The notes under the pieces: generated by a model
What the model saw: only the letters and a program-made list of their open reading frames with translations
Database searches by the model: none
Told to the model about the DNA's origin: nothing
Program-made: the position numbers and the translations under genes
Origin: a virus
IMG/VR virus record: IMGVR_UViG_3300049211_000017
Coordinates: 1 to 46,730 of that record
Strand: one strand, 5' to 3'
Length of the DNA: 46,730 nt
In this document: piece by piece, positions 1-46,730 of the stretch
How positions within the stretch are numbered: the first letter of the stretch is position 1
Layout: the number at the start of each line of letters is the position of its first letter

Positions 1-127
1 TAACGCGTGGACCAGACTGGCCACCGCCAGATCCTTGATACATCGCATTTTCCTGCTTCGCCTGCGCGAACTGGAAGCGATCGACATCGGATGCGGCCAG
101 CCTGTCATTGATACCGATGCCCAGCGC
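1..127. repeat. Terminal direct repeat, copy 1 (identical to 46604..46730)
   Basis: I compared both ends base by base: taacgcgtggaccagactgg...ccgatgcccagcgc is identical at 1-127 and 46604-46730. A length of 127 equals a common maximal assembler k-mer, so this is probably a circular-contig overlap. Confidence 0.95.
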
Positions 128-1057
128 GTTAGCGACATTCTGCGCGTATTGGACTGGATTGTTGGCCCCATCGCCTGCGGGAGCCCAGCGCTGGGCGATC
201 TTCGCGGGCGTATCGTAACCGCGCTCGATATAGGAGCGCAGCAACGCACGTTGGGCATTCTCCCCGTCTGCGATCGACCCGAACTTGGCGAAGCGTCCAT
301 TCGGGCCTTGATAGCCCGGCTGCGAGCGTGCGAAATCGCTATCGATGATCCCGCCGGGGTTGTTGCCTTCAAGCGCAACAGTCCCACCGCTCGCACCCGC
401 GCCAGAAGCTGGACCACCTCCTCCCGTCATGCCACGTGTCTGGATAAGCTGCCGTCCGGATGCATCCGAACCGAACTCCATGAACTGCGATGGATTGACG
501 TGGCCAAGAACCGCCTCGCGGAACTCGGGCGTCCCTGGCTTGACGCCAGCGGCCTTCAGAAGACGTATCGTCTCCGGGTCCTTTGCGGCGTCAATTGCCT
601 TATCGACATCAGAGGCTTCCGCCGCAACGGCATCGATAGCGTCATCGGTCGGATCGAACTGTGCGAGCTGCTCATCGGTATAGCCCAGCGCCTTGAGCGT
701 CGGAGCGGATTGCGCGATGAACGCCTTACGGGCCGCATATGGGCGACTCTTGGCAGCCAGCGCCACGCTGGCCAATGTCCCGGCACGCTCCTTGACAGTC
801 TTGCGCTGGCTTTCGTCCATTTTGCCGAGCGAATCAAACAAGTCGAAATCGCCTGAGGTCGCTGCCTCACGCTTCGCGCCAGCCAGATCGCCAGTACCAG
901 CAAGGGCCCCGACACGCTTCCGGGTCGCCAGCGCCTCGTCTTCTCGCTCCATCTTGCGGCCAAGAAGGCGACTCTGGAAATCCTGCTGCTGGCGCTGGTG
1001 ATACGCCCCGAGAATGCCCGGAATATCAACCTCAGTGATGCCGAAGGGGTTTGCCAT
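1..1057 (-). CDS. Ejection/internal virion protein candidate, 5' part of a 560-aa gene that wraps the window junction and continues at 45978..46603
   Basis: ATG at 1057 overlaps the upstream stop (ATGA). I checked every codon of this minus frame from 1057 to 2 and found no stop. It is in frame with the track ORF 45978..46646 (1057-43=1014=3x338). It sits at the P22 gp20 position. Contains an NNPGGIIDSDF...RWAP motif. Confidence 0.8.
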   Translation of the reverse strand, partial: MANPFGITEVDIPGILGAYHQRQQQDFQSRLLGRKMEREDEALATRKRVGALAGTGDLAGAKREAATSGDFDLFDSLGKMDESQRKTVKERAGTLASVALAAKSRPYAARKAFIAQSAPTLKALGYTDEQLAQFDPTDDAIDAVAAEASDVDKAIDAAKDPETIRLLKAAGVKPGTPEFREAVLGHVNPSQFMEFGSDASGRQLIQTRGMTGGGGPASGAGASGGTVALEGNNPGGIIDSDFARSQPGYQGPNGRFAKFGSIADGENAQRALLRSYIERGYDTPAKIAQRWAPAGDGANNPVQYAQNVANALGIGINDRLAASDVDRFQFAQAKQENAMYQGSGGGQSGPRV

Positions 1058-1857
1058 CAGTAGATCCCGCCGAGTTTGCCGCCATAGATCGGGGGAGTCC
1101 CGCCATAGGTCGCCCCACCGCCACCAAAGCCCCCGCCCTGGCTGTACAAGTATCCGCTTAGGGCGTTGTTGATCCCGCTATTGATCGCCGACCCCGTATT
1201 GGCATAGGCGCTGGCCCGTGCATTGCCCGCGTTGGTGAAGGCGTTCGATATGCCCTGCGCCGCCGACTGGCCTGCCTGCGATGTCGCCTGTGTCGAGGTC
1301 TGCCCGACGCCAGCGAGCGCTGAAAGCCGGTTGGCGTAATTCTCATATTCGGAGGACGCGAGACCCTCGCCGTAGCGCTGGATCGCCTTCAACGTGCCAC
1401 CCGAGCTGAGCAGGCCACGCGCCGCCGCTGATCGCTCGGCAGCCTTCACGCCCTCGTCGAGCCGGAATTGATAGCCCGGAGATGCCTGAAACCCGTCGTA
1501 ACCCGGAGTCATCTGCTGTTGCGGCTGGCCGGCCGCTGTCGGCTGCGCTTGCGTGCTGATCCCACGAAAACCGTCAAAGCCCGTACTAGGCGATGCCTGA
1601 AACCCGTCATCGCCCATATTGCGCGCCGGCGTCCCGGTCGGGCGGCTGATCCCGTACATGTCCGCGAGCTTGTAGAGCGCGCCCGAGCCGACTTCGCGAT
1701 AGGGAGCCTGATCGGAGCGGCTTGTATCATAGAAGTAGCGCTCGTTCGCGGCGGTCTGATCGGCGGCATTCGCCTGCGCCTTCGCGGCCTTATTCCCAGC
1801 AACTACTGTGGAAACCCCGCCTATAAGCGCCGCGCCGCCGATCGCAACAGCTACCAT
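1057..1857 (-). CDS. Ejection/internal virion protein candidate (266 aa), N-terminal TM helix, Gly/Ala/Gln-rich
   Basis: Track ORF 1057..1875. The ATG at 1857 overlaps the GNAT stop (TAATG). N-terminus MVAVAIGGAALIGGVSTVVAG is hydrophobic. C-terminus is GGGFGGGGATYGG. It sits at the P22 gp7 position. Confidence 0.6.
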   Translation of the reverse strand: MVAVAIGGAALIGGVSTVVAGNKAAKAQANAADQTAANERYFYDTSRSDQAPYREVGSGALYKLADMYGISRPTGTPARNMGDDGFQASPSTGFDGFRGISTQAQPTAAGQPQQQMTPGYDGFQASPGYQFRLDEGVKAAERSAAARGLLSSGGTLKAIQRYGEGLASSEYENYANRLSALAGVGQTSTQATSQAGQSAAQGISNAFTNAGNARASAYANTGSAINSGINNALSGYLYSQGGGFGGGGATYGGTPPIYGGKLGGIY

Positions 1858-2315
1858 TATTCGCCCCCCAGCCAAGATGAATAGAACACCTCAACCCGCT
1901 CGTATCCAAGGCGCTCGAACAGAAATGATGCATCTTTGTGGCACTTGGACCCAACGAACATGCGCTGGACGCCGCGCCGCCTCGCCTCGACCTCCACCGC
2001 CTTGAACAATTTGTTCCCGCCCATCTTGCCCCGGTGCTCCGGAGCGATCCAAAATATATCCATCGTAAGAGTTAGGCATGTTTTATAATGCAAGCCGGGG
2101 CCGACGAATCCAATGAAATAGCCGGCGAGCTTACCAGCTTCGCGCAAGGTCATCACCATGACTTCACCGCACGCGTCCTTGCGGTCGTACACGTCATATT
2201 GTGGATCGAGCGGGACTTCATCCTTGTTCAGCGCAAGCTCTTCCCAGTGCAACGGGAATAAGGGCTTCGCTTCATGGACAAACTCAGACCAAGGCTCAAC
2301 CTGCGCAGTCAGCAT
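1857..2315 (-). CDS. GNAT-family N-acetyltransferase (152 aa)
   Basis: Acetyl-CoA motif-A-like HRGKMGGNKLFKAVEVEARRRG, with a beta-strand/helix pattern typical of GNAT. Overlaps both neighbours. Confidence 0.75.
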   Translation of the reverse strand: MLTAQVEPWSEFVHEAKPLFPLHWEELALNKDEVPLDPQYDVYDRKDACGEVMVMTLREAGKLAGYFIGFVGPGLHYKTCLTLTMDIFWIAPEHRGKMGGNKLFKAVEVEARRRGVQRMFVGSKCHKDASFLFERLGYERVEVFYSSWLGGE

Positions 2316-2857
2316 GCCGGCCCCCGCACGTCGATGATGAGCACAATCCGGTCGTCCGCGCTGTTGTTGACCACGCTATGCTCGGCCCGGTTGTTGACCA
2401 GCCAGACTTCGCCCATGCGGAAATTGACCACCTCCTCCTCGATGATGAAATTCGCACCGGGGAGCGATTGCAGCGCGAGTTGATAACGCGTGTAATAGGT
2501 TGCGGGCGCGCCACCATCGACATGCGCGGGAATCGTCTTACCAGGCGCCAGCCTCGTGATCATGACCCGGCCCAACCGCGTGCCATCGACCCGGCGCATC
2601 AGGTTCAGGACGATCTCGCGTAGATGGGGCAATTCGGACCATGCCCTGTAAGGAATCACTTCAAGGTCATCAACAACCTCGGATGGATTGTCAGGGATCT
2701 TGTTGAACCAGCACCAGATATCGTCTGTCTCCTTATGGGGAGACAGCGGATGCGTGGTGCGTAGGGTGTTTTCGTTCCACAGATCGGGGTTGACCGCGAG
2801 CGCGTTGAGCAGCGGCACAACATCCACACCTTCGACGATCTTGCAAAAGTGGCGCAT
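2309..2857 (-). CDS. Cupin / 2OG-Fe(II)-type oxygenase resembling aspartyl/asparaginyl beta-hydroxylases (182 aa from ATG 2857; alternative start 2920)
   Basis: HxD...H metal triad candidates (PAHVDGG ... NRAEHSV). C-terminus DDRIVLIIDV is typical of this fold. There is a 7-nt overlap with the GNAT start. Confidence 0.7.
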   Translation of the reverse strand: MRHFCKIVEGVDVVPLLNALAVNPDLWNENTLRTTHPLSPHKETDDIWCWFNKIPDNPSEVVDDLEVIPYRAWSELPHLREIVLNLMRRVDGTRLGRVMITRLAPGKTIPAHVDGGAPATYYTRYQLALQSLPGANFIIEEEVVNFRMGEVWLVNNRAEHSVVNNSADDRIVLIIDVRGPAC

Positions 2858-2961
2858 GAAGCTCCAGACAGCCAACCTTGACGGTGATGTTCTGTCTGGC
2901 CGTGATCGGCGGCCCATCATGCCGCCAGCTTGCGCCTCACGGAATGAGGGATAGCATAGGG

Positions 2962-2990
2962 TTGAGCATAAGGGAAGACTGGGTTATCGT
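2962..2990 (+). promoter_or_regulatory. Sigma70-like promoter candidate for the counter-oriented DUF551-like gene
   Basis: TTGAGC (2962-2967), 17-nt spacer, TATCGT (2985-2990). The ATG lies 7 nt downstream with no Shine-Dalgarno sequence, which would give a leaderless mRNA. Confidence 0.35.
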
Positions 2991-2997
2991 GGCGGCT

Positions 2998-3189
2998 ATG
3001 GGCTGGTATTCAATCGAATCTGCACCGAGAGACGGAACGTGGGTTATAATCTTCGGTGAATGGAATGGACAGCCACGCGCCCATGCTGCATTTTACAGCG
3101 ATGGCGATTGGTATGACTCCGAAGCAGCGTCTGCGTCACTGACCACCTTTGGTTGGCGTCCAACCGGATGGACGGGATTGCCTAAGTAA
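2998..3189 (+). CDS. DUF551-like small protein (63 aa), opposite strand to the late operon
   Basis: MGWYSIESAPRDGTWVIIF...WRPTGWTGLPK matches the W-x-P/S-I-E-[ST]-APKDGT ... W-x-P-L-P pattern. A paralogue lies at 26027..26329. Confidence 0.55.
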   Translation: MGWYSIESAPRDGTWVIIFGEWNGQPRAHAAFYSDGDWYDSEAASASLTTFGWRPTGWTGLPK

Positions 3190-3520
3190 CCTCTATCCCG
3201 CTGGCCACGAGCGCGACTGAGGTAGCCGCCGACGCCAACGCCTGGATGGTCCCGCCCGCCTCAAGCCACTGGCCGATCGCCTCGATTACCTTGTAACTTT
3301 CGTTCTGGTTCAAGCTCTTGGCCGACAGGACCATATTACTGTCCGTCGCGGTTCCACCTGATGGAACGAGGTGGATCGTCACAGTCCGCGCCGAAGCGTT
3401 CACATTGGTGATCGTCATCGCCTGTATCTGCGCGCGGGTTGACGTGCCAACCGTGTAGAATGTCGTCGCGGCAGCGGTGATCTGCGACCCCGCCACCATT
3501 CTTTTACCAGTGATCGCCAT
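3182..3520 (-). CDS. Small beta-rich virion-associated protein candidate (112 aa)
   Basis: GGGGA Shine-Dalgarno sequence 4 nt before the ATG. Position is between the needle-like gene and the ejection block. Confidence 0.6.
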   Translation of the reverse strand: MAITGKRMVAGSQITAAATTFYTVGTSTRAQIQAMTITNVNASARTVTIHLVPSGGTATDSNMVLSAKSLNQNESYKVIEAIGQWLEAGGTIQALASAATSVALVASGIEVT

Positions 3521-4381: not shown

Positions 4382-5743
4382 CTACTTGGCATCCAAATAA
4401 TAACTAAAAATAAATCGCCGAACCGGATCGGTGATCACGATCTTGAACTGGCGCTGCCTGAATTGGCCGAGCTTGCGCCAGATGACGCGGGTCGTGTACG
4501 CGCCGATCGCACCCATCGACCGCCACAGTTCATTCGACCAGGTGCGCCCGCCATTGTCCGAATAGCTAAGCATCGCCTGGGGGTCGCTGCCCTGCCCCGT
4601 ACTTAGCCCGACGCCGCTTTCGCACATCAGTTCGAAAGCGTAGCAGGTCATTTCATTGCGCGTGCCGCTCTCGATCACAGGCAACGTCATCTCCATCGAA
4701 ATGCTGTCGCCATCCTCGGCATAAGTGTCGAACGACGCCGTGTAGAGCTTGCCGGTGGTGTTGCTTCCGAAGATCGTCTGATCGTAGACCCGCACCGCCG
4801 ATCCCGCCCGCCAATTGTCCAGCGCGAGCGATTTACGTTCATGCCATGCCCCGGTGGACATGTCATAGCCGAACGTCCCGACATCGGTGCAGAGCAGATA
4901 ATGCTTGTGGCCTTCCTCGGTGACGGTGAACGCCCATGCGTCTGTTGCATTGCGCAACTCATATTCGATCGCATGGGTCGAAATGCGGATCGGGCTATAA
5001 CCATCGAGCCGGTAGACAATCATATCGTCGCCGAGGAAATGCACGCTGTTGTCGATCTTGACGATGCTGTCGCGGGCGAAACAGCCGCGCTCGATGAAGG
5101 CGTTGCCCTGCCGTTCGAACGGGAAATCCGCCGCACCCGAATTGTACCAGATCTCGATCGACTGCTTGCCGTAGAATTGGACTTCGCGATGATCGATACA
5201 GACCCCCACCAGAGCATCGGGCGAGCCCTCGACTGTCGCGATGTCGAGCGGATCATAGATGGTGGCGTTGTTGAGCGAGGATATGACGAATTGCCCGCTG
5301 CTGTCGGCCTTGGTCCACAGGATATAGCCGTCGATGAACCCCACGTCGGAGACCGCCGGCAGATCGGCCGGCGTCGTTATCGAGCCACCGGAATAGACAT
5401 GGCCGACCGTCCCGCCGACGATCGCCAATTCAGTGCCATTGTCCGCCATCGGACAGCGCCCGGAACCCCCGATCGCCCCAAGGTCGGTTGCCGTACCGCT
5501 ACTATCGATCGAATAGAGCCGTGCGCCCGAAACGGCATAGAGCGTATCTCCCATGCGGTGGACGCCGCGCACCGGGTAGGTTGCCAGTTCATCGAACTCG
5601 GTAAGCCCCGGTATCAGCATCACCGCAAACAGGTCGCGCTGGTCGCCGCTGCCCTGCTCGGCATAGCAGTTGACAAGCTTTGACCCGCCCCACGGCGAGG
5701 ATCGGCCCTGCGAATAGCTGAGTGCTGGCTTGACCTTCAGCAT
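4382..5743 (-). CDS. P22 gp10-like tail hub / packaged-DNA stabilisation protein (453 aa)
   Basis: Size, position and a C-terminus (RVIWRKLGQFRQRQFKIVITDPV) that resembles the P22 gp10 C-terminus as I recall it. The start overlaps the adaptor stop (TGATG). Confidence 0.55.
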   Translation of the reverse strand: MLKVKPALSYSQGRSSPWGGSKLVNCYAEQGSGDQRDLFAVMLIPGLTEFDELATYPVRGVHRMGDTLYAVSGARLYSIDSSGTATDLGAIGGSGRCPMADNGTELAIVGGTVGHVYSGGSITTPADLPAVSDVGFIDGYILWTKADSSGQFVISSLNNATIYDPLDIATVEGSPDALVGVCIDHREVQFYGKQSIEIWYNSGAADFPFERQGNAFIERGCFARDSIVKIDNSVHFLGDDMIVYRLDGYSPIRISTHAIEYELRNATDAWAFTVTEEGHKHYLLCTDVGTFGYDMSTGAWHERKSLALDNWRAGSAVRVYDQTIFGSNTTGKLYTASFDTYAEDGDSISMEMTLPVIESGTRNEMTCYAFELMCESGVGLSTGQGSDPQAMLSYSDNGGRTWSNELWRSMGAIGAYTTRVIWRKLGQFRQRQFKIVITDPVRRFIFSYYLDAK

Positions 5744-6438
5744 CACAGATCAGGCTGGAGGAAGATGCTCGCCGGCTCTGTGTCCCAACCACTCAATGCC
5801 GCGTAAAGCGCCCCCGCCCGCGCGTTGATCTCCATCCGCAAATCCGGCGCAATTCCGTACTTGAGCGCCAACTCGCTCGCCAGCGCGTAGCACAGCGCCT
5901 GCGTCCATTCCTGCGGTAGATCGGGGTCATCCGCCGACCCATCGAAATCCTCGATGCGGCGCAGATAGGTGACGCGCAGGGTTTGCGCCGCTGCCGTCGC
6001 GGTCGAAGCCGTGGGCCACAGGTAAAGCGTCCCGGTCTCCCGCTGCGGATCGTAATAGAAGGACACTGGGACTGATGCGCTGGTCTTGTTCGGCGTGTCG
6101 AAATATTCCTGTCGGCTCATCTCGGTCATCGGCGTGTCGGTAGAGCCGGACGTGACGCGGCGGCGCACGGACAGCACCCGCATCGGCTTGACGCTGAACA
6201 GCGTTGCCAGCGCATATTCGGCCTGAGACGCCACGAGCGTGACCGAGCCTTCGGTCATCGTCCAGAGATGGCTTTGCGCGCCCCACGTCTTCACGATCAG
6301 GTTGAGCGAGCGCGTGGCGCGGCTGTACATATCGGCGGAGACGCTTTCTCCCTCCGATCCAATGCCGCAAATATCGAAGGCTTCGTCGATAATCGTGTTG
6401 GTGACGAGACCGAAGTTGGTTGACGAACTCGTGCTCAC
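5743..6438 (-). CDS. Head-to-tail adaptor candidate (231 aa, GTG start)
   Basis: Sits at the P22 gp4 position between the capsid block and the gp10-like gene. Translationally coupled on both sides. Confidence 0.45.
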   Translation of the reverse strand: MSTSSSTNFGLVTNTIIDEAFDICGIGSEGESVSADMYSRATRSLNLIVKTWGAQSHLWTMTEGSVTLVASQAEYALATLFSVKPMRVLSVRRRVTSGSTDTPMTEMSRQEYFDTPNKTSASVPVSFYYDPQRETGTLYLWPTASTATAAAQTLRVTYLRRIEDFDGSADDPDLPQEWTQALCYALASELALKYGIAPDLRMEINARAGALYAALSGWDTEPASIFLQPDL

Positions 6439-8184: not shown

Positions 8185-9093
8185 TTACGCGCCCATTCCG
8201 TTGCTGTAGATGCCCCGGAAGTCCGTCATTCCGACCGAGAACCTCATGTAACTTTTATATTTGAGGTTCGAAGTGTCGAAATCGCCGTCCTGCGCGAACG
8301 CCGCCTTTTCGCGGTCGAACAGCTTCATCCCCTGCGGCGCATCGGTGCGGATGAAGAACGCATCCGTATCGGTGAGGAAGTGGTTCATCGCCACCTTGGG
8401 GATGATTCCGGTCGAGCGCAGCGCGTTGACCGCATTGTTTGCGGTATCGTTCTGGAGCATCGACTTCAACACCCGCTCGGCCTCGAAAAAGAGCTGGCGC
8501 GGGAGGATGAGCGACTTCGGCATGAGCTTGATGATGTTGCCCACGCTGTCGGTTGCGCCCATGATCTGGATGCACAGATCTTCCAGCGCCGCTTCCGAGA
8601 AGTCCGCAGCCGTGGCCAGCCGGTTCGACTGGTTGCCGGTCAGCGTCGGATGCGACACGGACGAAAGCACGATGCCGTCGCCGAACGTATAGCCCGAGGT
8701 CTGCGCGCGGTTGTAAACGTTCGCCGCCACCGTCTCCTTGGTGAGCCGCATCGAGCGGGCCAGGGATTCGGTGCGCGAAACGCCGCGCTTTGTGTAGAGG
8801 TTGTCCATCATCTCCTCGTGGGTGATGATGAAGCCCAGCGCATAGGCAACGTGCGTGTAGCGCGTGACCGTCTGCTGCGAGGTCGAGGTGTAGGTGATCG
8901 CCGACCCTTGGGTCTTGATCGGCGCCAGACCGAAGCCGGGCTCCTCCACATCTTCCTCATAGGCCATGTCCGATGATTTGACATCGAACAGGTCGGTATA
9001 TTCGGTGGGCTGATCCGTATAATCGCGACCCCATACGGCGTTGAGGCCGGGACGGAGAAGCTTCGGAATGTCGCCAGTCGAGATAACTGCCAT
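8185..9093 (-). CDS. Major capsid protein candidate (302 aa)
   Basis: Position after the scaffold and auxiliary genes, appropriate size, and a hairpin plus terminator bracket downstream. I could not confirm a family by eye. Confidence 0.7.
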   Translation of the reverse strand: MAVISTGDIPKLLRPGLNAVWGRDYTDQPTEYTDLFDVKSSDMAYEEDVEEPGFGLAPIKTQGSAITYTSTSQQTVTRYTHVAYALGFIITHEEMMDNLYTKRGVSRTESLARSMRLTKETVAANVYNRAQTSGYTFGDGIVLSSVSHPTLTGNQSNRLATAADFSEAALEDLCIQIMGATDSVGNIIKLMPKSLILPRQLFFEAERVLKSMLQNDTANNAVNALRSTGIIPKVAMNHFLTDTDAFFIRTDAPQGMKLFDREKAAFAQDGDFDTSNLKYKSYMRFSVGMTDFRGIYSNGMGA

Positions 9094-11486: not shown

Positions 11487-11972
11487 TCAGTCTCCCAACC
11501 TTGCGATAACGTCCGTGTCGTTCATGATCCGATACTTCTCACCATCATCACCCTTAAGGAGGATGCCACCATATTTCGCGATAAGGATGCGGTCGCCGGG
11601 CGCGGGCCGCGTAAAATGGGGCGATCGCGAAGCCGCTTCTTCCCACGCGTTCTCGCCGACCGCGATCAGCGTACCCTTCATCGTGGCGAACTCTTCCTTT
11701 TCCTTCGCCTGCTCGGGAATGAAGAGGCTGCCCACCTTATCCTGAACTGGATCTGGCATCACCAGCACCTTGAGATCGAGCGGATGGAACCCGCTGCTGT
11801 TGCGATAGCCGCTAGATGCGAGACTGGATACATGATCGGCATAAGCCCTTTCTGCCTTGTCTTGGCCTTCTGCATGGGCGCGGGCCAGTTCAGGAACTAT
11901 GGGCCCTGCGTACGGGAATGGCTCCGCCACCGGGGGCCACTCTTCACCGCTCTTGATCGCCTCAACCGCCAT
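11487..11972 (-). CDS. GroES/Cpn10-like co-chaperonin domain protein with an N-terminal extension of about 65 aa (161 aa; alternative start 11984)
   Basis: LKVLVMPDPVQDKVGSLFIPE...KGTLIAVGENAW...PGDRILIAKYGG...YRIMNDTDVIARL follows the Cpn10 pattern. GGAG lies 6 nt before ATG 11972. Confidence 0.6.
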   Translation of the reverse strand: MAVEAIKSGEEWPPVAEPFPYAGPIVPELARAHAEGQDKAERAYADHVSSLASSGYRNSSGFHPLDLKVLVMPDPVQDKVGSLFIPEQAKEKEEFATMKGTLIAVGENAWEEAASRSPHFTRPAPGDRILIAKYGGILLKGDDGEKYRIMNDTDVIARLGD

Positions 11973-12210
11973 GCTCAACTCCATCCGTTCCCTCGTCCAC
12001 CTGATAGAAATCCCTCACCTGCTCACAGGACAGGTCCGCCAACTCCCCCAACAACCTCGCCATCGGCTGGTATTCCGGGCTCATCGGCGCCCCCCGGCCC
12101 CATGCCTCCATCAAGGCCGCTTGCCGATCCTTGAGGTAAGCCAGGAACGGCTCCGTCAACCGGTGGCTCTTCCATGCCTGGAACTGCTCCGGGTCGGTCA
12201 GCGGGTTCAT
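11962..12210 (-). CDS. Hypothetical protein (82 aa) overprinted on the portal 3' end
   Basis: GGAGGG lies 5 nt before the ATG. Third-position GC is very high in this frame across the 188-nt overlap. Confidence 0.6.
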   Translation of the reverse strand: MNPLTDPEQFQAWKSHRLTEPFLAYLKDRQAALMEAWGRGAPMSPEYQPMARLLGELADLSCEQVRDFYQVDEGTDGVEHGG

Positions 12211-14107
12211 TCATGCCCTCCATCGTATATCCTGTGGATTCGGTCGCGGCCTTGGTTCCCGCCCCCGCGAGAACCGCCGCGTCTGGCAGCATCCCCATCT
12301 GAAGCGCGAGCATTGCTGCGTCGAACATCGATTTCGCCGCCGCCGCCTTGTCCTTGTCGTACTGGCCGTCGATCTTGAGCTTTTCGAGCGCGAGCTTTGC
12401 CCCTTCGATCAGCAGCATCGGATCGGGCTTGGGCTCGCCGACATCAAGCAGCGCCTGCCGCTGGTCACTCGGGATACCCGCTGCTTCCAGTACGATCTTG
12501 TTGAGTGCCGCCTGATTGACGCCGGGATCGCCCTTGAACGACTGGATCAGGAAGCCGGCGCGGCCATGGCGCTGGGCGTCCGATACCATGGTCGGGTCGG
12601 ACACCGGCACCACGTCGAGATCCTTGTCCTGATAGTCGTCCTTCGTGACCATCTGCGGGTCGTCGTTGAGGTTGAAATAGGCGTCCTCGTCGAGGTTCTC
12701 CCTGTTCAACTCCATCTGCTTCTGGAGATCCTTGCCGAAGGAGCGGTGGATGCGCTTGAAGATCGACTTCATCACCTTCATCGCCTGGTCGATCTGCGCC
12801 AACGTCGTCGTGGCCGGCGTGTTGGCGTTCTGCTCGCCGCCAGTCATGATGTCCTGAACCGAGGTGATCCCGCGTGCCGCGTCGATCAGGAACTCCAGCA
12901 GGGTGAGCAGCACCGGCGAAGGGCCGGGCAATTGCAGCGGGAGGATGTTGTCGCGCAAGGTGCCCGCCGTCACGTCGACGCGCTTCCACTCACCCATGAT
13001 CGCACGCAGCGGGCCGCCCTTGATGTTGACGCCAGAGCCGAGGAACCCGCCCTGCGCGTTCTGGAGCGTGCCAGCGTCGAGAGACTGGTTGATCACCGCG
13101 TTGATCGCATCACTCAAATCATCGAGCAGCTTGCCGAAGCCCATACCGTAGAAGCTGCCGTCAGGGGACGGGAAGAACAGGTAGCGGGTGAACCAGCAGC
13201 GGCGCTCGATCTTGACCACGCCCTGATTGTTCATCGTCACCGTCTCGGGCGTGAACGCGGCCGTGATGCGAACAATCTTGCCCTCACGGGTCAGGGTGAC
13301 GACGTAGGGCTCAGCATAGCCATCGTCGTCGAGATCGATCAGCCGGTGCTGTTCGAGGAACTCGACTTCCGCATCATCATCGTCCTGCGAGACGCGCTTG
13401 CTTTCGACGGTGGGCGACACCTCGCCAGGATCGATCCAGCGCCCATTGAGCACCCGCTCCCGGATGTCATTGGGGTAGAGCCGGACGATCTGCGTATAGC
13501 GCGGCGCGGTCTCGAACGAGCGGAACCAGTAGTTCACCACCATGTCGTCTTCAGGAACGATGATAGCGCAATTCTGGCGCGTCACATCGTCATAATAGCT
13601 CTTGCGAAACCCGCACCCCATGATCGGAAGATTGAGCAACAGGCTGTCGGTCTCCTCCTCCCAATCTGGCATGTCGAACAGCAATTGCCAGCTCATATGC
13701 TGGGCTATGCGATCGGCGCGCGCCTGCTTCTCGCCGTCAGGATCGGCCCCCAGCACCCGTCCCTTGGCGATGTTCGGACCGTCGACGATCACCGGATAGG
13801 CGGTGGCCTGGAACTGAAGCGCTGCTTGGATCAGCAGCGGGAACTTCACATTGGCCGCCTTGGGCCATGGGAAGTTCTTCGCCTCCTTGGCCTGCATCGC
13901 AGCCGCCCGCCAGCGCTTGGCATCCGCCAGCCAGTCCTTGCGGCTGTCCTCGTCGATCGCGAAGTCGCGGATGCAGCGCTGGCCGATGCCCGCCAGTTCG
14001 TTCTCGTCGAGCAGCTCCGCGATGTTGTCGGCTTCGAGGATGGCGTGGATGTCGAGCGCCTGCGTCTCGGGCTCTTCCTCGTCCACCATGATTGCGGTTT
14101 CAGCCAT
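12023..14107 (-). CDS. Portal protein (694 aa)
   Basis: Size and position directly after terL. The acidic N-terminus and conserved core look portal-like. Confidence 0.8.
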   Translation of the reverse strand: MAETAIMVDEEEPETQALDIHAILEADNIAELLDENELAGIGQRCIRDFAIDEDSRKDWLADAKRWRAAAMQAKEAKNFPWPKAANVKFPLLIQAALQFQATAYPVIVDGPNIAKGRVLGADPDGEKQARADRIAQHMSWQLLFDMPDWEEETDSLLLNLPIMGCGFRKSYYDDVTRQNCAIIVPEDDMVVNYWFRSFETAPRYTQIVRLYPNDIRERVLNGRWIDPGEVSPTVESKRVSQDDDDAEVEFLEQHRLIDLDDDGYAEPYVVTLTREGKIVRITAAFTPETVTMNNQGVVKIERRCWFTRYLFFPSPDGSFYGMGFGKLLDDLSDAINAVINQSLDAGTLQNAQGGFLGSGVNIKGGPLRAIMGEWKRVDVTAGTLRDNILPLQLPGPSPVLLTLLEFLIDAARGITSVQDIMTGGEQNANTPATTTLAQIDQAMKVMKSIFKRIHRSFGKDLQKQMELNRENLDEDAYFNLNDDPQMVTKDDYQDKDLDVVPVSDPTMVSDAQRHGRAGFLIQSFKGDPGVNQAALNKIVLEAAGIPSDQRQALLDVGEPKPDPMLLIEGAKLALEKLKIDGQYDKDKAAAAKSMFDAAMLALQMGMLPDAAVLAGAGTKAATESTGYTMEGMNEPADRPGAVPGMEEPPVDGAVPGLPQGSASGLDGGMGPGGADEPGIPADGEVVGGVGGPVL

Positions 14108-23356: not shown

Positions 23357-23683
23357 GTGGCATATTCCGATATTGATTGTTTCGGCGTCTCTAGCACTGC
23401 GGATTTTTATCCGGAATTAGACGATCCCGAATCCTTCGATGGCGACACGATAACGTGGACTTTCCAACTGCCTAGGCAGCAGGAAACTGGGGCAGGGATT
23501 TATCGCATCCAGTTCGTGCGAATTCTCACCCGCGAAGAAAAAGACATGCCTATAGGCAAGGTTCTCGCGTCAGCGAACACCGGCTCCCCTTCGTATGACA
23601 CGCCCGCCTCATCCGGTGACACCGGCATGCAGGGCTCGCCGCCAGCGTGCGAGGCAACGCTCGCGGCAACCGGAGATCAATAA
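23357..23683 (+). CDS. Hypothetical protein (108 aa, GTG start)
   Basis: AGGAGA lies 6 nt before the GTG. Confidence 0.5.
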   Translation: MAYSDIDCFGVSSTADFYPELDDPESFDGDTITWTFQLPRQQETGAGIYRIQFVRILTREEKDMPIGKVLASANTGSPSYDTPASSGDTGMQGSPPACEATLAATGDQ

Positions 23684-24315
23684 TGGAAACGTCTGACAGT
23701 TCGGCCATGTCCGCCAAGATCGTGGCGGCGATTGCCGCCGTGATGGGCAAGGTGCCGAAACTCGCCAAGGGCGAGCGCAACACACATGCCAATTACAACT
23801 TCGCCTCGATCGACGACTTCCTGGAGGCTGTCCGCCCGCTGATGGCGGATGCCGGATTGGTCATCGCCTCGGATGAGGATTCATTCGAGGTGTTGGACGG
23901 CGGGTGGCTGAAGATGCGCTTCGCCTTCTCGGTCCATTGCGGCGGTGATAGCTATGGCCCGCTCCGTCGCTCGATCATGACGCAATCGAAGATGGGATCG
24001 CAGTCGTTCGGTGCCGCACAGTCTTACGCCGAAAAGCAATTCCTGCGCTCGCTGTTCAAGATCGCGACCGGGGAAGGGGACGCCGACAGCCATGCACAGG
24101 TTCCACTAACACGGACAAGTTCCAGTCCCCCGCGCGATACCGATCGCATCACCCCCAAGCAAGTCGAAGCATTGCAGAAGCTGGCCGATGAGGTCGGCGC
24201 CGATGTCCGCAAATTCTGCGCCTACGCGAAAATCACGGTCCTTGGCGACATTCGCGCAGCCGACTTCGATCGCGCGGTTGAGACGCTTGAAGCCAAGAGG
24301 AAGCAGGCAGCATGA
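23683..24315 (+). CDS. erf: Erf-family single-strand annealing protein (210 aa)
   Basis: NYNFASIDDFLEAVRPLMADAGL and FGAAQSYAEKQFLRSLF motifs. TAATG coupling. Confidence 0.75.
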   Translation: METSDSSAMSAKIVAAIAAVMGKVPKLAKGERNTHANYNFASIDDFLEAVRPLMADAGLVIASDEDSFEVLDGGWLKMRFAFSVHCGGDSYGPLRRSIMTQSKMGSQSFGAAQSYAEKQFLRSLFKIATGEGDADSHAQVPLTRTSSSPPRDTDRITPKQVEALQKLADEVGADVRKFCAYAKITVLGDIRAADFDRAVETLEAKRKQAA

Positions 24316-24980
24316 ACGTGCCCACCATCATCGAACAGCGGACGGAAGACTGGTTCGCAATCCGCTGTGGCAAAGCCACCGCCTCCCGCATCGCCGACAT
24401 CATCGCCAAGACCAAGAGCGGCTATTCTGCCTCACGTGCCAACTACCTCGCTCAGCTCGTGTCCGAAAGGCTGACGGGGACGGTCGAGCCGGGATTCACC
24501 AACGCCGCGATGCAATGGGGATGTGACAATGAGGCCGAGGCTCGGTCAGCCTATTGCTTCCGGCAGGACGTGGATGTCGTGGAGGTCGGCTTTGTCGATC
24601 ATCCCAGCATTGCGATGACCGGCGCCAGCCCCGACGGCCTGATCGCGGAGGACGGGCTCGTCGAGATCAAGTGTCCAAACACTGCCACGCACATCGACAC
24701 ACTGCTCAAGGGCGTGGTGCCGGCGAAATACCGGACACAAATGGCGTGGCAGATGGCCTGTACCGGGCGGACGTGGTGCGACTTCGTGTCGTACGATCCG
24801 CGCCTACCCGAGAAAATGCGGCTGTTCGTCAAGCGCATCCACCTGGCCGACGAGCCGATTGGCGAGATCGAGGCCGAGGTCATCGGTTTCCTGAAAGAGG
24901 TTCACGAGACCGTCACGGACCTGCTCGACATCTATGATCCCGCGCCCAGCAACGTCGTCGATTATATTCGGGCTGGCTGA
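24312..24980 (+). CDS. YqaJ/lambda-exonuclease-type recombination exonuclease (222 aa)
   Basis: EDWFAIRCGKATASRIADI and SPDGLIAEDGLVEIKCP motifs. Confidence 0.85.
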   Translation: MNVPTIIEQRTEDWFAIRCGKATASRIADIIAKTKSGYSASRANYLAQLVSERLTGTVEPGFTNAAMQWGCDNEAEARSAYCFRQDVDVVEVGFVDHPSIAMTGASPDGLIAEDGLVEIKCPNTATHIDTLLKGVVPAKYRTQMAWQMACTGRTWCDFVSYDPRLPEKMRLFVKRIHLADEPIGEIEAEVIGFLKEVHETVTDLLDIYDPAPSNVVDYIRAG

Positions 24981-43902: not shown

Positions 43903-45978
43903 TTATTGCTCGTCTGGCCCTTGATTTGGTGAAGCGGCAACGCTGCCGGATCTGGCCAAATTGTCGTTCGCCCCTTGGAGTATCCTTTCGAAGGCCGTAA
44001 TGTCAGCCGGGGCATTGTCGCGTGATGCGATCGCCGCGAGTTGGGCAAGGTGTGACTTGACCGCGCCTGGGCCTTGCGCTGGCTGGATTTTCCCAGCCTT
44101 GGCAAGCCAGCGGACATATTGCGGATGTACGAGCAGTTTGCCAGCGCCAAATTGCATCCCGGCCGCAACAATGGCCGCAGGATAATTTGCGAACCCGAGG
44201 CCCGTCAAAAACGTAAGATTGGTTCCGATCGAGGTGTTGGAAAAGTTCTGGAGCTTGCCGGCCTCCTTCATCCCGTTCGCGACGGTGGCGAGGTCGTCTA
44301 GAGATTTGCGAAGGGCCTGGTTCTCGCCGAACAACACCGACTTGGCGCGCGGTGACATCTTATTCCATTGCGTGACGAATTGACCAGGGGAAAATACAGT
44401 CCCCGCCGCGTCCTGCGTGCCGGCAGACGCCTCACCCAACTTCTTGATAACGGTGGCGCGCACGGTTGCGGCCTCTTCGTCGGGAAGCGACCGCAACAAG
44501 CGGGAAAGTTTAGCAGGATCGCCACCTTCCTTTTTCCCGAGGCGGAGCAATGATTCATAGGCCGGCTGTCCGCCCTTTCCGCCGTCCTTGCCCAAAACGA
44601 CAGACAGGACATTGTCAATCCTGTCCTGCCGCGCCTTCCAATAGGCATTGGCGCGCTTGAGATCGGTCAGAGCTTTAGGCGGAGCCGCGCCGGTCTTACT
44701 CGCCACTTCGACCGAACGCTCTATATCACCCGACAAGGCGGCATAAACCCGCTTGAGATCGGCGGTCTTGATGTCATCGGTAAGCGAAGGATTGCGCAAA
44801 GCCTCGCCTACCGCCGTCCGCAATCTCCGTGCGGCTTCCAGTGGGATAGAACCGGTGCCCCCAGCGTCACTGGCGAGGGCCTCGCCGAATTTTTTGAGCG
44901 TCGGATTTTGCATTAACGCTGCAATCTCTGGCGTTTGCGACAAGGTGCGGAGCGTCTGACGGGTCGCCGCTATGGTCTCATCGACTACAACCGGCGTCTG
45001 AGGCGCAATCGGAGCAAGGGCTTTGTCGAACAGGTCGCCGCCGCGTTTGCCAGACTGTTCGATAAACGTCCGCGCACCCTTCTGTGCGGCTTCACCAGCC
45101 CCTTCGGCATCGGCCACGCGGCCCGCCCCCTCGGCTATGACATTGCGTGCCGTTCCTACGCTTTCGACCGATTCCTTAGCCGCCTTCGCCATGGGGATAG
45201 CTCCGAGCGTCTTGGCCCCGTAGGAACTGAGCATCTTGGTTGTCGTACCACCGACATCAGCTGGCAGAACTTTGGCCCCGATGCGATCGGCGGCAGCCGC
45301 CACTTCCTGTCCCGGCGAGACGCGCGATAGTAGCGGCGCGGGGCTTTCGATGCCGAGCGCCTTGGGTAGCGATTTCGCGAACGGGGTCACGCCGGGGATT
45401 GTCATCAATCCCGCGCCGAGCTGCCCGACTATTCTAACCCCTTTGCCAACGGCGTCGTCTGGCGTCGGGGCGGCCTTTTCGATCAAGCCGCCAATCGTGA
45501 TTGGATTGTAGAGGTTGGTGCGCGCGGTTTCACCAGCCTGTCGAATGCTTTCGCCATCCAACCCGAGCGCGTCAGCGCCAGCGCCAATCGCCTTGGCGCC
45601 GTAACGCGCGCCCTCGCCCATGACCGCACCCAGCGCGTTCGTCGCAGCATCGGGGATGCCCGCAAGGCCTTGCCCCACCGCCGCCAAGGCATTGGCTGTT
45701 GACCCGCCCCATGTCGGAGCTTCCGCGACATCCGACGGCGGAACATCCACCAATCCAACCGGCGCGCTATCCATTTGAAATTCAGACCATGGATCGCCCG
45801 CTTGCTGCTCGTCTGTCGCTTCGGATGGTGCAGCGTCCCCGCCGACAATATCGACGCGCAACGGTCTCCCGGTGCCCGCGCCGCCGCTATAGCCAGGGCC
45901 TGCCTGCGGAACGATCGGCAACCGGCTATCGGGGACCGGCGGTTCGTCCATCTGGAACTCGGCCCATGCGTCCTCCAT
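43903..45978 (-). CDS. Ejection/internal virion protein candidate (691 aa)
   Basis: Sits at the P22 gp16 position. Ala/Gly-rich and largely helical. N-terminal duplicated motif AWAEFQMD / PWSEFQMD. Confidence 0.6.
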   Translation of the reverse strand: MEDAWAEFQMDEPPVPDSRLPIVPQAGPGYSGGAGTGRPLRVDIVGGDAAPSEATDEQQAGDPWSEFQMDSAPVGLVDVPPSDVAEAPTWGGSTANALAAVGQGLAGIPDAATNALGAVMGEGARYGAKAIGAGADALGLDGESIRQAGETARTNLYNPITIGGLIEKAAPTPDDAVGKGVRIVGQLGAGLMTIPGVTPFAKSLPKALGIESPAPLLSRVSPGQEVAAAADRIGAKVLPADVGGTTTKMLSSYGAKTLGAIPMAKAAKESVESVGTARNVIAEGAGRVADAEGAGEAAQKGARTFIEQSGKRGGDLFDKALAPIAPQTPVVVDETIAATRQTLRTLSQTPEIAALMQNPTLKKFGEALASDAGGTGSIPLEAARRLRTAVGEALRNPSLTDDIKTADLKRVYAALSGDIERSVEVASKTGAAPPKALTDLKRANAYWKARQDRIDNVLSVVLGKDGGKGGQPAYESLLRLGKKEGGDPAKLSRLLRSLPDEEAATVRATVIKKLGEASAGTQDAAGTVFSPGQFVTQWNKMSPRAKSVLFGENQALRKSLDDLATVANGMKEAGKLQNFSNTSIGTNLTFLTGLGFANYPAAIVAAGMQFGAGKLLVHPQYVRWLAKAGKIQPAQGPGAVKSHLAQLAAIASRDNAPADITAFERILQGANDNLARSGSVAASPNQGPDEQ

Positions 45979-46730
45979 CAGCGCGTTCCCGTCCGTCCGT
46001 CAGGCGTGATGAACTTGGTGCCGGGCTTGAGCGCGCGAGCTTCGGCCGGGGTGTTGACGCGGACGGTACCGCCGCTCTTAGGCGCGCCACGATCCCGGTA
46101 TGTCGTAAGATCGCCAACGATCCGATCGAGCGACGCCTTGAATGATGCTTCGCTCTGCTTCGGGTCGAGCGCGCCGATCGCGTCGGTCAGTTTCTGGCCC
46201 TCGGCATTGGATAGCGCACCCATCCCCTTCATGCTCTGCACCATCGGGAGAAAGACTTGCGCCTTCATCGTGTCCAGATTGGCCACAAAATCAGCCGCAT
46301 CCGTCCCTGGTACAACCCATCCTCCTATGAGCCCGCCAGTCAGGCCCTTTGCGCCCACGGCAGTGCTAAGTCCGGGATGGGTTTTCAACCTTCCGGCTGT
46401 CTCGATCGCGCGGTTGAAGGCGTCGATAGCCGACTGCGAATAAGGAGCATCGGCCTTGTCGCCATCCTTATCGACCCGCTGCGGAATACCACTCTCATTG
46501 CGATAGTAGACGCCGGGAGCGAGCCCCTCGGCAGCCACTTCCGCAGCGGTCAGGCGGGGGGCCTGGAACTTGGGCTGCTTTGGCACTGGCGGCGTACTTG
46601 CGATAACGCGTGGACCAGACTGGCCACCGCCAGATCCTTGATACATCGCATTTTCCTGCTTCGCCTGCGCGAACTGGAAGCGATCGACATCGGATGCGGC
46701 CAGCCTGTCATTGATACCGATGCCCAGCGC
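45978..46730 (-). CDS. 3' part of the junction-spanning 560-aa ejection protein gene (see 1..1057)
   Basis: Track ORF 45978..46646 is only the portion after an internal Met. The frame stays open to the window end and continues at 1057..128. Confidence 0.8.
   Translation of the reverse strand, partial: ALGIGINDRLAASDVDRFQFAQAKQENAMYQGSGGGQSGPRVIASTPPVPKQPKFQAPRLTAAEVAAEGLAPGVYYRNESGIPQRVDKDGDKADAPYSQSAIDAFNRAIETAGRLKTHPGLSTAVGAKGLTGGLIGGWVVPGTDAADFVANLDTMKAQVFLPMVQSMKGMGALSNAEGQKLTDAIGALDPKQSEASFKASLDRIVGDLTTYRDRGAPKSGGTVRVNTPAEARALKPGTKFITPDGRTGTR
46604..46730. repeat. Terminal direct repeat, copy 2 (identical to 1..127)
   Basis: Exact 127/127 match to the window start. Confidence 0.95.

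What the first reader, a model, noticed from the sequence alone, without database searches (positions are those of the whole stretch)
1857..2857. Hydroxylase + GNAT acetyltransferase pair spliced into the ejection-protein block of a P22-like late operon
From terS to the tailspike, the gene order matches the P22 order 3-2-1-8-5-4-10-26-(14)-7-20-16-9. Two enzyme genes occupy the slot just before the three ejection-protein-position genes.

- The first is a cupin/2OG-Fe(II) oxygenase of the Asp/Asn beta-hydroxylase type (HxD...H).
- The second is a GNAT (R-G-x-x-G-G motif).
- They overlap each other by 7 nt.
- The GNAT stop shares a base with the start of the first ejection gene (TAATG).

They are therefore made together with, and in proportion to, virion and ejection proteins.

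Hypothesis: the pair either modifies (hydroxylates or acetylates) ejection or tail proteins, or is itself packaged and injected to modify a host target. I do not know of a described phage system with this arrangement.
Basis: partly seen in the sequence, partly recalled or inferred. Interest (0 to 1): 0.7.

Follow-up and report, generated by a model that had tools for sequence, protein, structure and literature searches.

The report
Hydroxylase plus IVP-A acetyltransferase before ejection genes
Two small enzyme genes, an iron/2-oxoglutarate hydroxylase and a GNAT acetyltransferase, really do sit immediately before this phage's DNA-ejection genes. The acetyltransferase is the already described "IVP-A" assembly gene of short-tailed phages, and the new part is its conserved, sometimes fused, hydroxylase partner.

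Summary
On the minus strand, 2309-2857 encodes a 182-aa 2OG/Fe(II) oxygenase (Pfam Asp_Arg_Hydrox, 1.7e-17; H112-x-D114...H160...R170). 1857-2315 encodes a 152-aa GNAT. The two genes overlap by 7 nt, and the GNAT stop shares a base with the start of a P22 gp7-type ejection gene.

"Spliced in" is wrong. The order hydroxylase, GNAT, gp7-like gene recurs in 78 of 79 usable IMG/VR loci, in 32 of 36 bacterial species genomes, and in Pseudomonas phage PfAn1. The gene overlaps recur too.

A GNAT-family gene just upstream of the internal-virion/ejection proteins is already described as podovirus IVP-A (T7 gp13, P22 gp14 slot; Hardies 2016). It is a non-structural morphogenesis factor. The window GNAT belongs to the same family as the VpV262 and Vibrio-phage slot GNATs.

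What appears undescribed is the hydroxylase partner:
- Its catalytic residues are near-invariant.
- It is more conserved than the flanking structural genes.
- At least seven divergent lineages encode natural hydroxylase-GNAT fusion proteins.

Best reading: a two-enzyme late unit acting on one shared substrate during ejection-protein assembly. The substrate is unknown. Packaging into virions is unsupported.

This is a new variant of a known kind, of moderate interest.

The parts
2309..2857 (-). 2OG/Fe(II) oxygenase, 182 aa (Asp_Arg_Hydrox family; HxD...H...R)
   Evidence: Pfam PF05118 1.7e-17. AF2 model pLDDT 95 with a DSBH fold. Foldseek best matches are L-Pro cis-4-hydroxylase 4p7w (E 3.6e-10, TM 0.68), Pro-3-hydroxylase 1e5r and AspH. 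H112, D114, H160 and R170 are kept in 145-150 of 151 sequences (150 representatives clustered at 50% identity, plus the window).
1857..2315 (-). GNAT acetyltransferase-fold protein, 152 aa, in the IVP-A slot
   Evidence: PF00583 1.4e-7 and phrog_1249. AF2 pLDDT 85. Foldseek: AAC(3)-Ib and RimI in the PDB; viral GNATs including VpV262 ORFS at TM 0.83. A family HMM hits VpV262 ORFS at 1e-16 and Vibrio-phage slot GNATs at 2e-42. R95 and G100 are invariant.
1057..1857 (-). First ejection / internal virion protein (IVP-B, P22 gp7 family), 266 aa; its start shares base 1857 with the GNAT stop
   Evidence: phrog_598 'DNA ejection' 1.2e-39. tblastn hits Xfas53 gp38 ('similar to P22 gp7') and VvAW1 gp03.
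1..1057 (-). 5' part of the second ejection-position gene (560 aa; continues at 45978-46603 across the circular junction)
   Evidence: 127-bp terminal overlap, and a continuous ORF once it is removed. ATGA overlap with the IVP-B stop.
45978..46603 (-). 3' part of the second ejection-position gene
43903..45978 (-). Third ejection-position gene, 691 aa
   Evidence: Position only; weak phrog_36512 hit. Homologues lie in the same position in related loci.
2858..3181 (.). Gap upstream of the hydroxylase, with an opposite-strand ORF at 2998-3189 (+). Absent from all relatives examined.
   Evidence: no tblastn hit in 83 loci; no HMM family hit; no promoter or terminator consensus
3182..3520 (-). 112-aa protein (phrog_1276, function unknown). 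In 41 of 80 related loci its homologue lies immediately upstream of the hydroxylase.
4382..5746 (-). P22 gp10-type tail hub / head closure Hc3
   Evidence: phrog_578 1.1e-117; Pfam Phage_stabilise

Best explanation
The GNAT is this phage's IVP-A-type protein. IVP-A is the small acetyltransferase-fold gene that opens the internal-virion/ejection-protein operon of short-tailed phages, in the slot of T7 gp13 and P22 gp14.

In a large clade of P22-tail-type (pro)phages of Alpha-, Beta- and Gammaproteobacteria, this gene has a dedicated partner, a minimal 2OG/Fe(II) hydroxylase encoded just upstream. The two form one functional unit. They are translated from the same late mRNA by overlapping stop and start codons, immediately before the gp7-like ejection protein. 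In some lineages they are fused into a single polypeptide.

Shown:
- Enzyme folds and catalytic motifs.
- Conserved order and coupling.
- Natural fusions.
- Family identity with the slot GNATs of VpV262-like phages.

Inferred:
- Both are catalytically active, non-structural late enzymes.
- They act in sequence on one shared substrate during assembly of the ejection proteins. The most likely chemistry is hydroxylation and acetylation of a protein. My best guess for that protein is an ejection/internal protein made from the same message, modified before it is loaded into the procapsid.
For: 1. Domains and motifs.
2. Synteny. Among 80 IMG/VR loci chosen only for the hydroxylase, 78 of 79 with room have the GNAT directly downstream, and about 70 have the gp7-like gene next. 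32 of 36 GTDB species genomes show the same. So do Pseudomonas phage PfAn1 and Limnohabitans phage DC33.
3. Coupling. The hydroxylase-GNAT spacing is -1, -4 or -7 nt in 71 of 79 loci. The GNAT-IVP-B spacing is within -11 to +4 nt in 58 of 70.
4. Rosetta-stone fusions. Seven divergent cluster representatives (29-48% identical to one another; P0344, P0349, P0378, P0420, P0435, P0470, P0471) are hydroxylase-linker-GNAT proteins. They have 15-40-aa linkers and keep all catalytic residues.
5. Stronger constraint than on neighbours. Median identity to the window is 60% for the hydroxylase and 64% for the GNAT, against 39% for gp10-like and 37% for IVP-B. Identity correlates with the tail hub (r=0.64 and 0.50).
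6. The GNAT alone sits in the same slot in Zobellviridae Vibrio phages, VpV262, MW202796 and cyanophage Pan3.
7. Literature. IVP-A is a non-structural morphogenesis protein that matches acetyltransferases, and P22 has IVP-A and IVP-B homologues in this position (PMC4819975; PMC6775973).
8. P22 gp7 is itself processed at its N-terminus, according to the record annotation. Maturation of IVP-B therefore has a precedent.
Against: - There is no direct evidence for any modified virion protein.
- Residues conserved in IVP-B of hydroxylase-bearing phages are equally conserved in hydroxylase-free relatives (Xfas53, VvAW1, P26218). No hydroxylase-specific target site is visible.
- The hydroxylase's closest solved structures are free-amino-acid and nucleoside hydroxylases, not protein hydroxylases.
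- The hydroxylase subfamily also occurs away from any IVP genes: beside a SET-domain gene and a DUF3987 gene in three Variovorax genomes (47% identity), and alone in L176 and L036. This argues for a substrate that exists without ejection proteins.
- My profile comparisons did not detect homology between this GNAT family and P22 gp14 or T7 gp13 (hhalign probability 0.1-0.2). The link to those two proteins rests on synteny and on the published HMM-HMM analysis.
Confidence: 0.45

Rival explanations
1. Host-directed enzyme pair. The two enzymes modify a host protein or small molecule late in infection (or from the prophage), for example an amino acid, a polyamine or a lysine-bearing host protein. 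They sit in the IVP-A slot only because that position is inherited. The product is not part of the virion.
For: - The nearest structures are free L-proline hydroxylases and small-molecule GNATs: AAC(3), GNA1 and the polyamine acetyltransferase DpA.
- Hydroxylase orthologues (47-60% identity) occur without IVP genes: next to a SET-domain methyltransferase in Variovorax and alone in a Caulobacterales contig.
- A roseophage paper lists GNAT and aspartyl hydroxylase as auxiliary metabolic genes (PMC11288001).
Against: - The position immediately before IVP-B is near-universal, with overlapping stop and start codons, across hosts from Sphingomonadales to Burkholderiales and Pseudomonas.
- No own promoter or terminator was found.
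- Composition is close to the genome's: GC 0.55-0.59 against 0.605.
- The GNAT family occupies a slot whose T7 occupant is needed for morphogenesis (PMC4819975).
Confidence: 0.27
2. Packaged effectors. One or both enzymes are loaded into the capsid with the ejection proteins and injected, to modify a host target such as a defence protein at the start of infection.
For: - The genes lie inside the ejection-protein block.
- Injected enzymatic activities do occur in this block in relatives: a DarB-like antirestriction annotation for the third ejection protein of VvAW1, a transglycosylase in PfAn1, and muralytic and methylase sites in IVPs (PMC4819975 Fig. 7 legend).
Against: - In those precedents the enzyme is a domain of a large IVP. 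Here, none of the 150 hydroxylase-family representatives contained an IVP-B domain; the fusions found were to the GNAT, a cupin or a second hydroxylase copy.
- Both proteins are compact single domains with no extension that could serve as a packaging signal.
- T7 IVP-A is not retained in virions, and the slot gene of phiRIO-1-like phages is called non-structural.
Confidence: 0.13
3. DNA modification. An oxygenase plus an acyl-CoA transferase modifies phage DNA bases just before packaging, a Mom-like anti-restriction chemistry.
For: - Late timing.
- From my own knowledge, Mu Mom is a GNAT-fold, iron-associated enzyme.
- AlkB/ALKBH5 appear among weaker structural matches, TM about 0.55.
Against: - Nucleic-acid oxygenases are not the top structural matches.
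- No other DNA-modification genes turned up among the larger ORFs screened.
- From my own knowledge, the same slot in T7 and P22 is occupied although neither is known to carry such a DNA modification.
Confidence: 0.05
4. Catalytically inert assembly chaperones that merely retain enzyme folds.
For: By eye, the acetyl-CoA motif of T7 gp13 and P22 gp14 looks degenerate (sequences). IVP-A function is described as morphogenetic.
Against: - The Fe ligands and the 2OG-binding Arg are kept in 145-150 of 151 sequences (150 representatives at no more than 50% identity, plus the window).
- GNAT R95 and G100 are invariant and are kept in the fusions.
- Both genes are more conserved than their structural neighbours.
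Confidence: 0.07

Closest known systems
Podovirus IVP-A (T7 gp13; P22 gene 14 slot; acetyltransferase-family gene of VpV262/phiRIO-1-like phages and cobaviruses)
   Same: - A small gene of about 140-160 aa immediately upstream of IVP-B (T7 gp14 / P22 gp7) and the large internal proteins.
- Acetyltransferase fold.
- The window GNAT is a direct family member of the VpV262 and Vibrio-phage slot GNATs (hmmsearch 1e-16 to 2e-42; hhalign 97.9%; TM 0.83).
   Different: - Here the acetyl-CoA loop is well conserved, and the gene has an obligate 2OG-oxygenase partner that is sometimes fused to it. The searched literature does not mention this partner.
- No homology to P22 gp14 (DUF2824) or T7 gp13 was detectable with my profiles.
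Asp/Asn beta-hydroxylase family (PF05118): human AspH, LpxO, OlsC
   Same: Pfam family membership, DSBH fold, and a 2OG-binding Arg ten residues after the distal His.
   Different: - 182 aa with no TPR or membrane domain.
- A full HxD...H triad. From my own knowledge, AspH uses two His only.
- NCBIfam scores for LpxO and OlsC are 17 bits against cut-offs of 450-500.
Bacterial free-proline hydroxylases (L-Pro cis-4-hydroxylase 4p7w; Pro-3-hydroxylase 1e5r)
   Same: Best sequence match in the PDB (1e5r, 2.3e-4) and best structural match (4p7w, E 3.6e-10, TM 0.68). The Fe and 2OG residues align.
   Different: Only 18-21% identity. About 100 residues shorter, so it lacks their extra substrate-lid elements. 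Substrate unknown.
Enzymatic domains carried by ejection / internal virion proteins (muralytic domains; DarB-like and methylase modules)
   Same: Enzymes encoded within the ejection-protein block of podoviruses.
   Different: Those are domains of the large packaged proteins. Here the enzymes are separate small proteins upstream of the block and were never seen fused to an ejection protein.

Membership tests
2OG/Fe(II) oxygenase, Pfam Asp_Arg_Hydrox (PF05118) | Profile match above the curated threshold | tested here: met
   64.1 bits against a cut-off of 22.6, E=1.7e-17
2OG/Fe(II) oxygenase, Pfam Asp_Arg_Hydrox (PF05118) | Double-stranded beta-helix fold | tested here: met
   AF2 pLDDT 95, pTM 0.90. 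434 PDB matches at E<=1e-3; the top 50 listed are almost all 2OG oxygenases.
2OG/Fe(II) oxygenase, Pfam Asp_Arg_Hydrox (PF05118) | Fe(II) facial triad HxD/E...H and a basic residue binding the 2OG C5 carboxylate | tested here: met
   H112, D114, H160 and R170 are invariant in 48 homologues and kept in 145-150 of 151 sequences (150 representatives plus the window). They align with the ligands of 1e5r.
Asp/Asn beta-hydroxylase proper (AspH), LpxO, OlsC | Equivalog-level similarity or accessory domains (TPR, membrane anchor) | tested here: not met
   NCBIfam LpxO 17.5 bits against 500; OlsC 17 bits against 450. A 182-aa single domain.
GNAT superfamily | Profile match above threshold, and the GNAT fold | tested here: met
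   PF00583 32.2 bits against 20.7. AF2 pLDDT 85. TM 0.72 to AAC(3)-Ib, and 0.83-0.88 to viral GNATs.
GNAT superfamily | Acetyl-CoA pyrophosphate-binding motif Q/R-x-x-G-x-G/A | tested here: inconclusive
   The sequence is R95-G-K-M-G99-G100, with the first Gly shifted by one position. R95 and G100 are invariant, also in the fusions. CoA binding was not tested.
Podovirus IVP-A (T7 gp13 / P22 gp14 slot) | Small gene immediately upstream of IVP-B, downstream of the tail hub and tubular tail genes | tested here: met
   The GNAT stop overlaps the IVP-B (phrog_598) start. The gp10-like hub lies upstream. The same holds in more than 100 relatives.
Podovirus IVP-A (T7 gp13 / P22 gp14 slot) | Belongs to the acetyltransferase family found in that slot in VpV262/phiRIO-1-like phages | tested here: met
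   An HMM built only from hydroxylase-linked GNATs hits VpV262 ORFS at 9.6e-17, Vibrio phage 1.253.O at 2e-42 and Pan3 ORF9 at 3.8e-6. hhalign gives 97.9% and 94.8%.
Podovirus IVP-A (T7 gp13 / P22 gp14 slot) | Detectable homology to T7 gp13 or P22 gp14 (DUF2824) | tested here: not met
   hhalign probability 0.1-0.2. The only hint is that the gp14 family profile's best non-repeat PDB hit is the GNAT PseH, at E=0.12. The published claim rests on the HMM-HMM work of Hardies et al..
Podovirus IVP-A (T7 gp13 / P22 gp14 slot) | Non-structural, but required for infectious particles | not testable with these tools
   Needs virion proteomics and genetics. The Pan3 proteomics results are shown only in a figure that is not held.
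Moron / auxiliary metabolic gene insertion | Patchy presence, own promoter or terminator, deviant composition | tested here: not met
   Present in 78 of 79 and 32 of 36 related loci. No promoter hit, and the single terminator-like hit lies inside the GNAT gene at the chance rate. GC 0.55-0.59 against 0.605 for the genome.

The most novel reading that the evidence does not exclude
IVP-A proteins are real acetyltransferases. In this large clade the ejection/internal virion proteins are enzymatically hydroxylated and acetylated by a dedicated phage-encoded two-enzyme unit before packaging, for example to keep these membrane-active proteins soluble or assembly-competent in the producing cell. That would be a covalent-modification step in podovirus virion morphogenesis that has not been described. 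It would also give a mechanism to the long-unexplained T7 gp13 / P22 gp14 class.
Probability: 0.2. Interest if true: 0.8.

Novelty: new variant of a known kind. Interest (0 to 1): 0.5.

Why it matters
The small gene that precedes the ejection proteins of short-tailed phages (T7 gp13, P22 gp14) is needed for infectious particles, but its mechanism is unknown. A widespread lineage keeps that gene as a canonical-looking GNAT and couples or fuses it to an intact 2OG/Fe(II) hydroxylase. This points to chemistry, rather than chaperoning alone, at this step.

A cultured carrier exists (Pseudomonas phage PfAn1), so the idea can be tested directly. It also warns against labelling these two genes as auxiliary metabolic genes in virome surveys.

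Tried and rejected
1. P22 gp14 as a homologue of this GNAT. Single-sequence and family-profile hhalign gave probability 0.1. A gp14 profile against the PDB gave only spurious designed-repeat hits and PseH at E=0.12. An IMG/VR scan for gp14 returned only sequences at least 94% identical. gp14 was not among the top 50 BFVD neighbours of the GNAT model. Left as 'not shown here'.
2. T7 gp13 against the GNAT family: probability 0.2.
3. Retrieving loci that encode the fusion proteins. Two IMG/VR scans found nothing. The metagenome scan returned only unfused gene pairs.
4. Looking for a hydroxylase-specific conserved residue in IVP-B: none found.
5. Promoter and terminator scan around the pair: nothing above chance.
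6. My guess that the opposite-strand ORF 2998-3189 is DUF551-like: no Pfam, PHROG or NCBIfam support.
7. Virion proteomics for cyanophage Pan3 ORF9, a GNAT-slot homologue. The paper shows the mass-spectrometry results only in a figure.
8. Literature searches for PfAn1, DUF2824, P22 gene 14 and virion-associated acetyltransferases gave nothing useful.
9. NCBIfam gave no family above its cut-off for either enzyme.
Full report
**What is there**

The genes lie on the minus strand. ORF 2309-2920 contains the hydroxylase. Homologues are 177-184 aa and align from the second ATG, so the gene is 2309-2857, 182 aa. It matches Pfam Asp_Arg_Hydrox at E=1.7e-17.

The next gene, 1857-2315 (152 aa), matches Pfam Acetyltransf_1 and the PHROG 'acetyltransferase' family phrog_1249. 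The two genes overlap in ATGCTGA, 7 nt. The GNAT stop TAA shares base 1857 with the ATG of gene 1057-1857.

Gene 1057-1857 is phrog_598 'DNA ejection' at 1.2e-39, the family of P22 gp7 and Xfas53 gp38.

The window is a circular genome with a 127-bp terminal overlap. Once the overlap is removed, the second ejection-position gene reads through the junction as 560 aa.

**Are they enzymes?**

The hydroxylase model is confident (pLDDT 95) and is a double-stranded beta-helix.
- Best structural matches are L-proline cis-4-hydroxylase, proline-3-hydroxylase, a nucleoside-antibiotic hydroxylase and AspH.
- The best sequence match in the PDB is proline-3-hydroxylase, with the Fe and 2OG residues aligned.
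- H112, D114, H160 and R170 are invariant in 48 close homologues. They are kept in 145-150 of 151 sequences: 150 representatives clustered at 50% identity, plus the window.
- No NCBIfam equivalog (LpxO, OlsC, non-proteinogenic amino-acid hydroxylase) comes near its cut-off.

The GNAT model (pLDDT 85) resembles generic small GNATs. R95 and G100 of the CoA-binding loop are invariant.

**Is the pair an insertion?**

No.
- I fetched 80 IMG/VR loci chosen only for encoding a hydroxylase relative. In 78 of the 79 with sequence downstream, the GNAT follows directly. In about 70 the gp7-like gene comes next.
- Spacing is -1, -4 or -7 nt between hydroxylase and GNAT in 71 of 79 loci. It is within -11 to +4 nt between GNAT and IVP-B in 58 of 70.
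- In one genome per species of GTDB, 32 of 36 hits show the same adjacency. They are in Sphingomonadales, Hyphomicrobiales, Caulobacterales, Burkholderiales, Rhodanobacteraceae and others.
- The cultured Pseudomonas phage PfAn1 has hydroxylase, acetyltransferase, two 'internal virion proteins', a transglycosylase and a tail protein in that order. Limnohabitans phage DC33 has the pair.
- Both enzymes are more conserved than their neighbours. Median identity to the window is 60% and 64%, against 39% for the tail hub and 37% for IVP-B. Their divergence tracks that of the tail hub.
- GC content is close to the genome's, and no promoter or terminator consensus flanks the pair.

**The two enzymes are one unit**

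A profile search of 1.8 billion cluster representatives found 3393 relatives of the hydroxylase at E up to 0.001. Among the best 150:
- Seven mutually divergent proteins (29-48% identical) are hydroxylase-linker-GNAT fusions of 338-379 aa. Their GNAT halves belong to the same family (E 1e-26 to 1e-49).
- They carry 15-40-residue linkers that the separate genes lack, so they are not frameshift artefacts.
- All catalytic residues are retained.

Other architectures are tandem hydroxylase-hydroxylase, and hydroxylase fused to a Cupin_2 domain of the PHROG families labelled 'tail fiber adhesin' / 'short tail fiber'. VvAW1 gp04, which sits just upstream of that phage's IVP-B, carries the same product name in its record. 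I did not test whether it belongs to those families.

**What the GNAT is**

The GNAT occurs without the hydroxylase in the same slot, after the tail hub and fibres and before the ejection proteins. This is the case in Zobellviridae Vibrio phages, VpV262 (ORFS, upstream of ORFT and the 1536-aa internal virion protein ORFU), MW202796 and cyanophage Pan3.

An HMM built only from hydroxylase-linked GNATs hits these at 2e-42 to 4e-6. hhalign gives 97.9% for VpV262 ORFS. The VpV262 protein is a top structural neighbour at TM 0.83.

Hardies et al. 2016 (PMC4819975) describe exactly this arrangement:
- The podovirus internal-virion-protein operon begins with IVP-A, a non-structural morphogenesis protein.
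- Both T7 gp13 and the slot gene of phiRIO-1-like phages match acetyltransferases.

The cobavirus paper makes the same link to T7 gp13. P22 gene 14 (151 aa, DUF2824) is indeed the gene immediately before gene 7.

I could not reproduce homology of this GNAT family to gp14 or gp13 with my own profiles. That membership criterion is recorded as not met here. The slot and the VpV262-type family membership are met.

**What the hydroxylase adds, and what argues against a virion substrate**

The papers I could search do not mention a hydroxylase in this context. One roseophage paper lists GNAT and 'aspartyl hydroxylase' as auxiliary metabolic genes. The ejection-protein review contains no mention of acetylation or hydroxylation.

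Points against an ejection-protein substrate:
- IVP-B residues conserved in hydroxylase-bearing phages are equally conserved in hydroxylase-free ones.
- The closest solved structures act on small molecules.
- The hydroxylase also occurs outside any IVP context. In three Variovorax genomes it directly follows a SET-domain gene, beside a DUF3987 gene. It stands alone in L176 and L036. In MW202665 it lies in the structural region without a recognisable GNAT.

Points against packaging:
- No fusion to an ejection protein was seen among the 150 representatives.
- Both proteins are compact single domains.
- T7 IVP-A is not retained in virions.

**Verdict**

The GNAT is the known IVP-A-type gene rather than an insertion, and the arrangement of a GNAT ahead of the ejection genes is described.

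The conserved and sometimes fused 2OG-oxygenase partner is, as far as I could find, undescribed. It suggests that this step of podovirus morphogenesis involves covalent chemistry.

The substrate is unknown. I rate 'acts during ejection-protein assembly, probably on a protein made from the same message' at about 0.45. A host-directed enzyme pair is the main rival, at about 0.27.

Noticed in passing
window 1-127 and 46604-46730: [quoted passage not shown] The sequence is a complete circular (or terminally redundant) phage genome of 46,603 bp.
   Followed up: yes
window 2858-3189 (+ strand ORF 2998-3189): A 324-bp gap between the 112-aa gene and the hydroxylase holds a 63-aa opposite-strand ORF (MGWYSIESAPRDGTW...PTGWTGLPK). 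It has no homologue in any of 83 related loci and no HMM family hit. In many relatives the 112-aa gene abuts the hydroxylase, so this looks like a small insertion unique to this genome.
   Followed up: partly
window 11487-11984 (-): A 165-aa protein with a Cpn10/GroES co-chaperonin domain (Pfam PF00166, 2.6e-9) is encoded between the portal and capsid-region genes.
   Followed up: no
window 8185-9093, 12023-14107 (-): The head module is not P22-type. The portal matches SU10_portal and the capsid matches Phage_capsid_4, while the adaptor, tail hub and first ejection protein are P22-type. The late region is mosaic.
   Followed up: partly
L189:5077-6645 (Variovorax robiniae; also L190, L191): A 47%-identical hydroxylase homologue lies 12 nt downstream of a SET-domain protein (PF00856, 7.6e-9), next to a DUF3987 gene. 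There is no GNAT and no ejection gene. This is a second pairing of the hydroxylase with a protein-lysine-modifying type of enzyme, in a different mobile element.
   Followed up: partly
P0417, P0421, P0438, P0449, P0454, P0428 (cluster representatives): Other hydroxylase architectures exist: tandem hydroxylase-hydroxylase (up to 965 aa, with an unannotated C-terminal 600 aa), and hydroxylase fused to a Cupin_2 domain of PHROG 'tail fiber adhesin' families. VvAW1 gp04, in the slot just before IVP-B, carries that product name in its record.
   Followed up: partly
L087:6444-10516 (Vibrio phage VvAW1 gp01): The giant third ejection-position protein of VvAW1 is annotated 'DarB-like antirestriction'. 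This is an example of an enzymatic anti-defence module carried inside an ejection protein.
   Followed up: no
L002 (Limnohabitans phage DC33, PQ492659.1): The GenBank taxonomy line files this 39-kb genome under Inoviridae. It nevertheless carries a hydroxylase-GNAT pair homologous to those of the tailed phages examined here, so the taxonomy looks misassigned.
   Followed up: no
window 23647-24980 (+): An Erf-like single-strand annealing protein and a RecE-like exonuclease form a recombination module on the opposite strand from the late genes.
   Followed up: no
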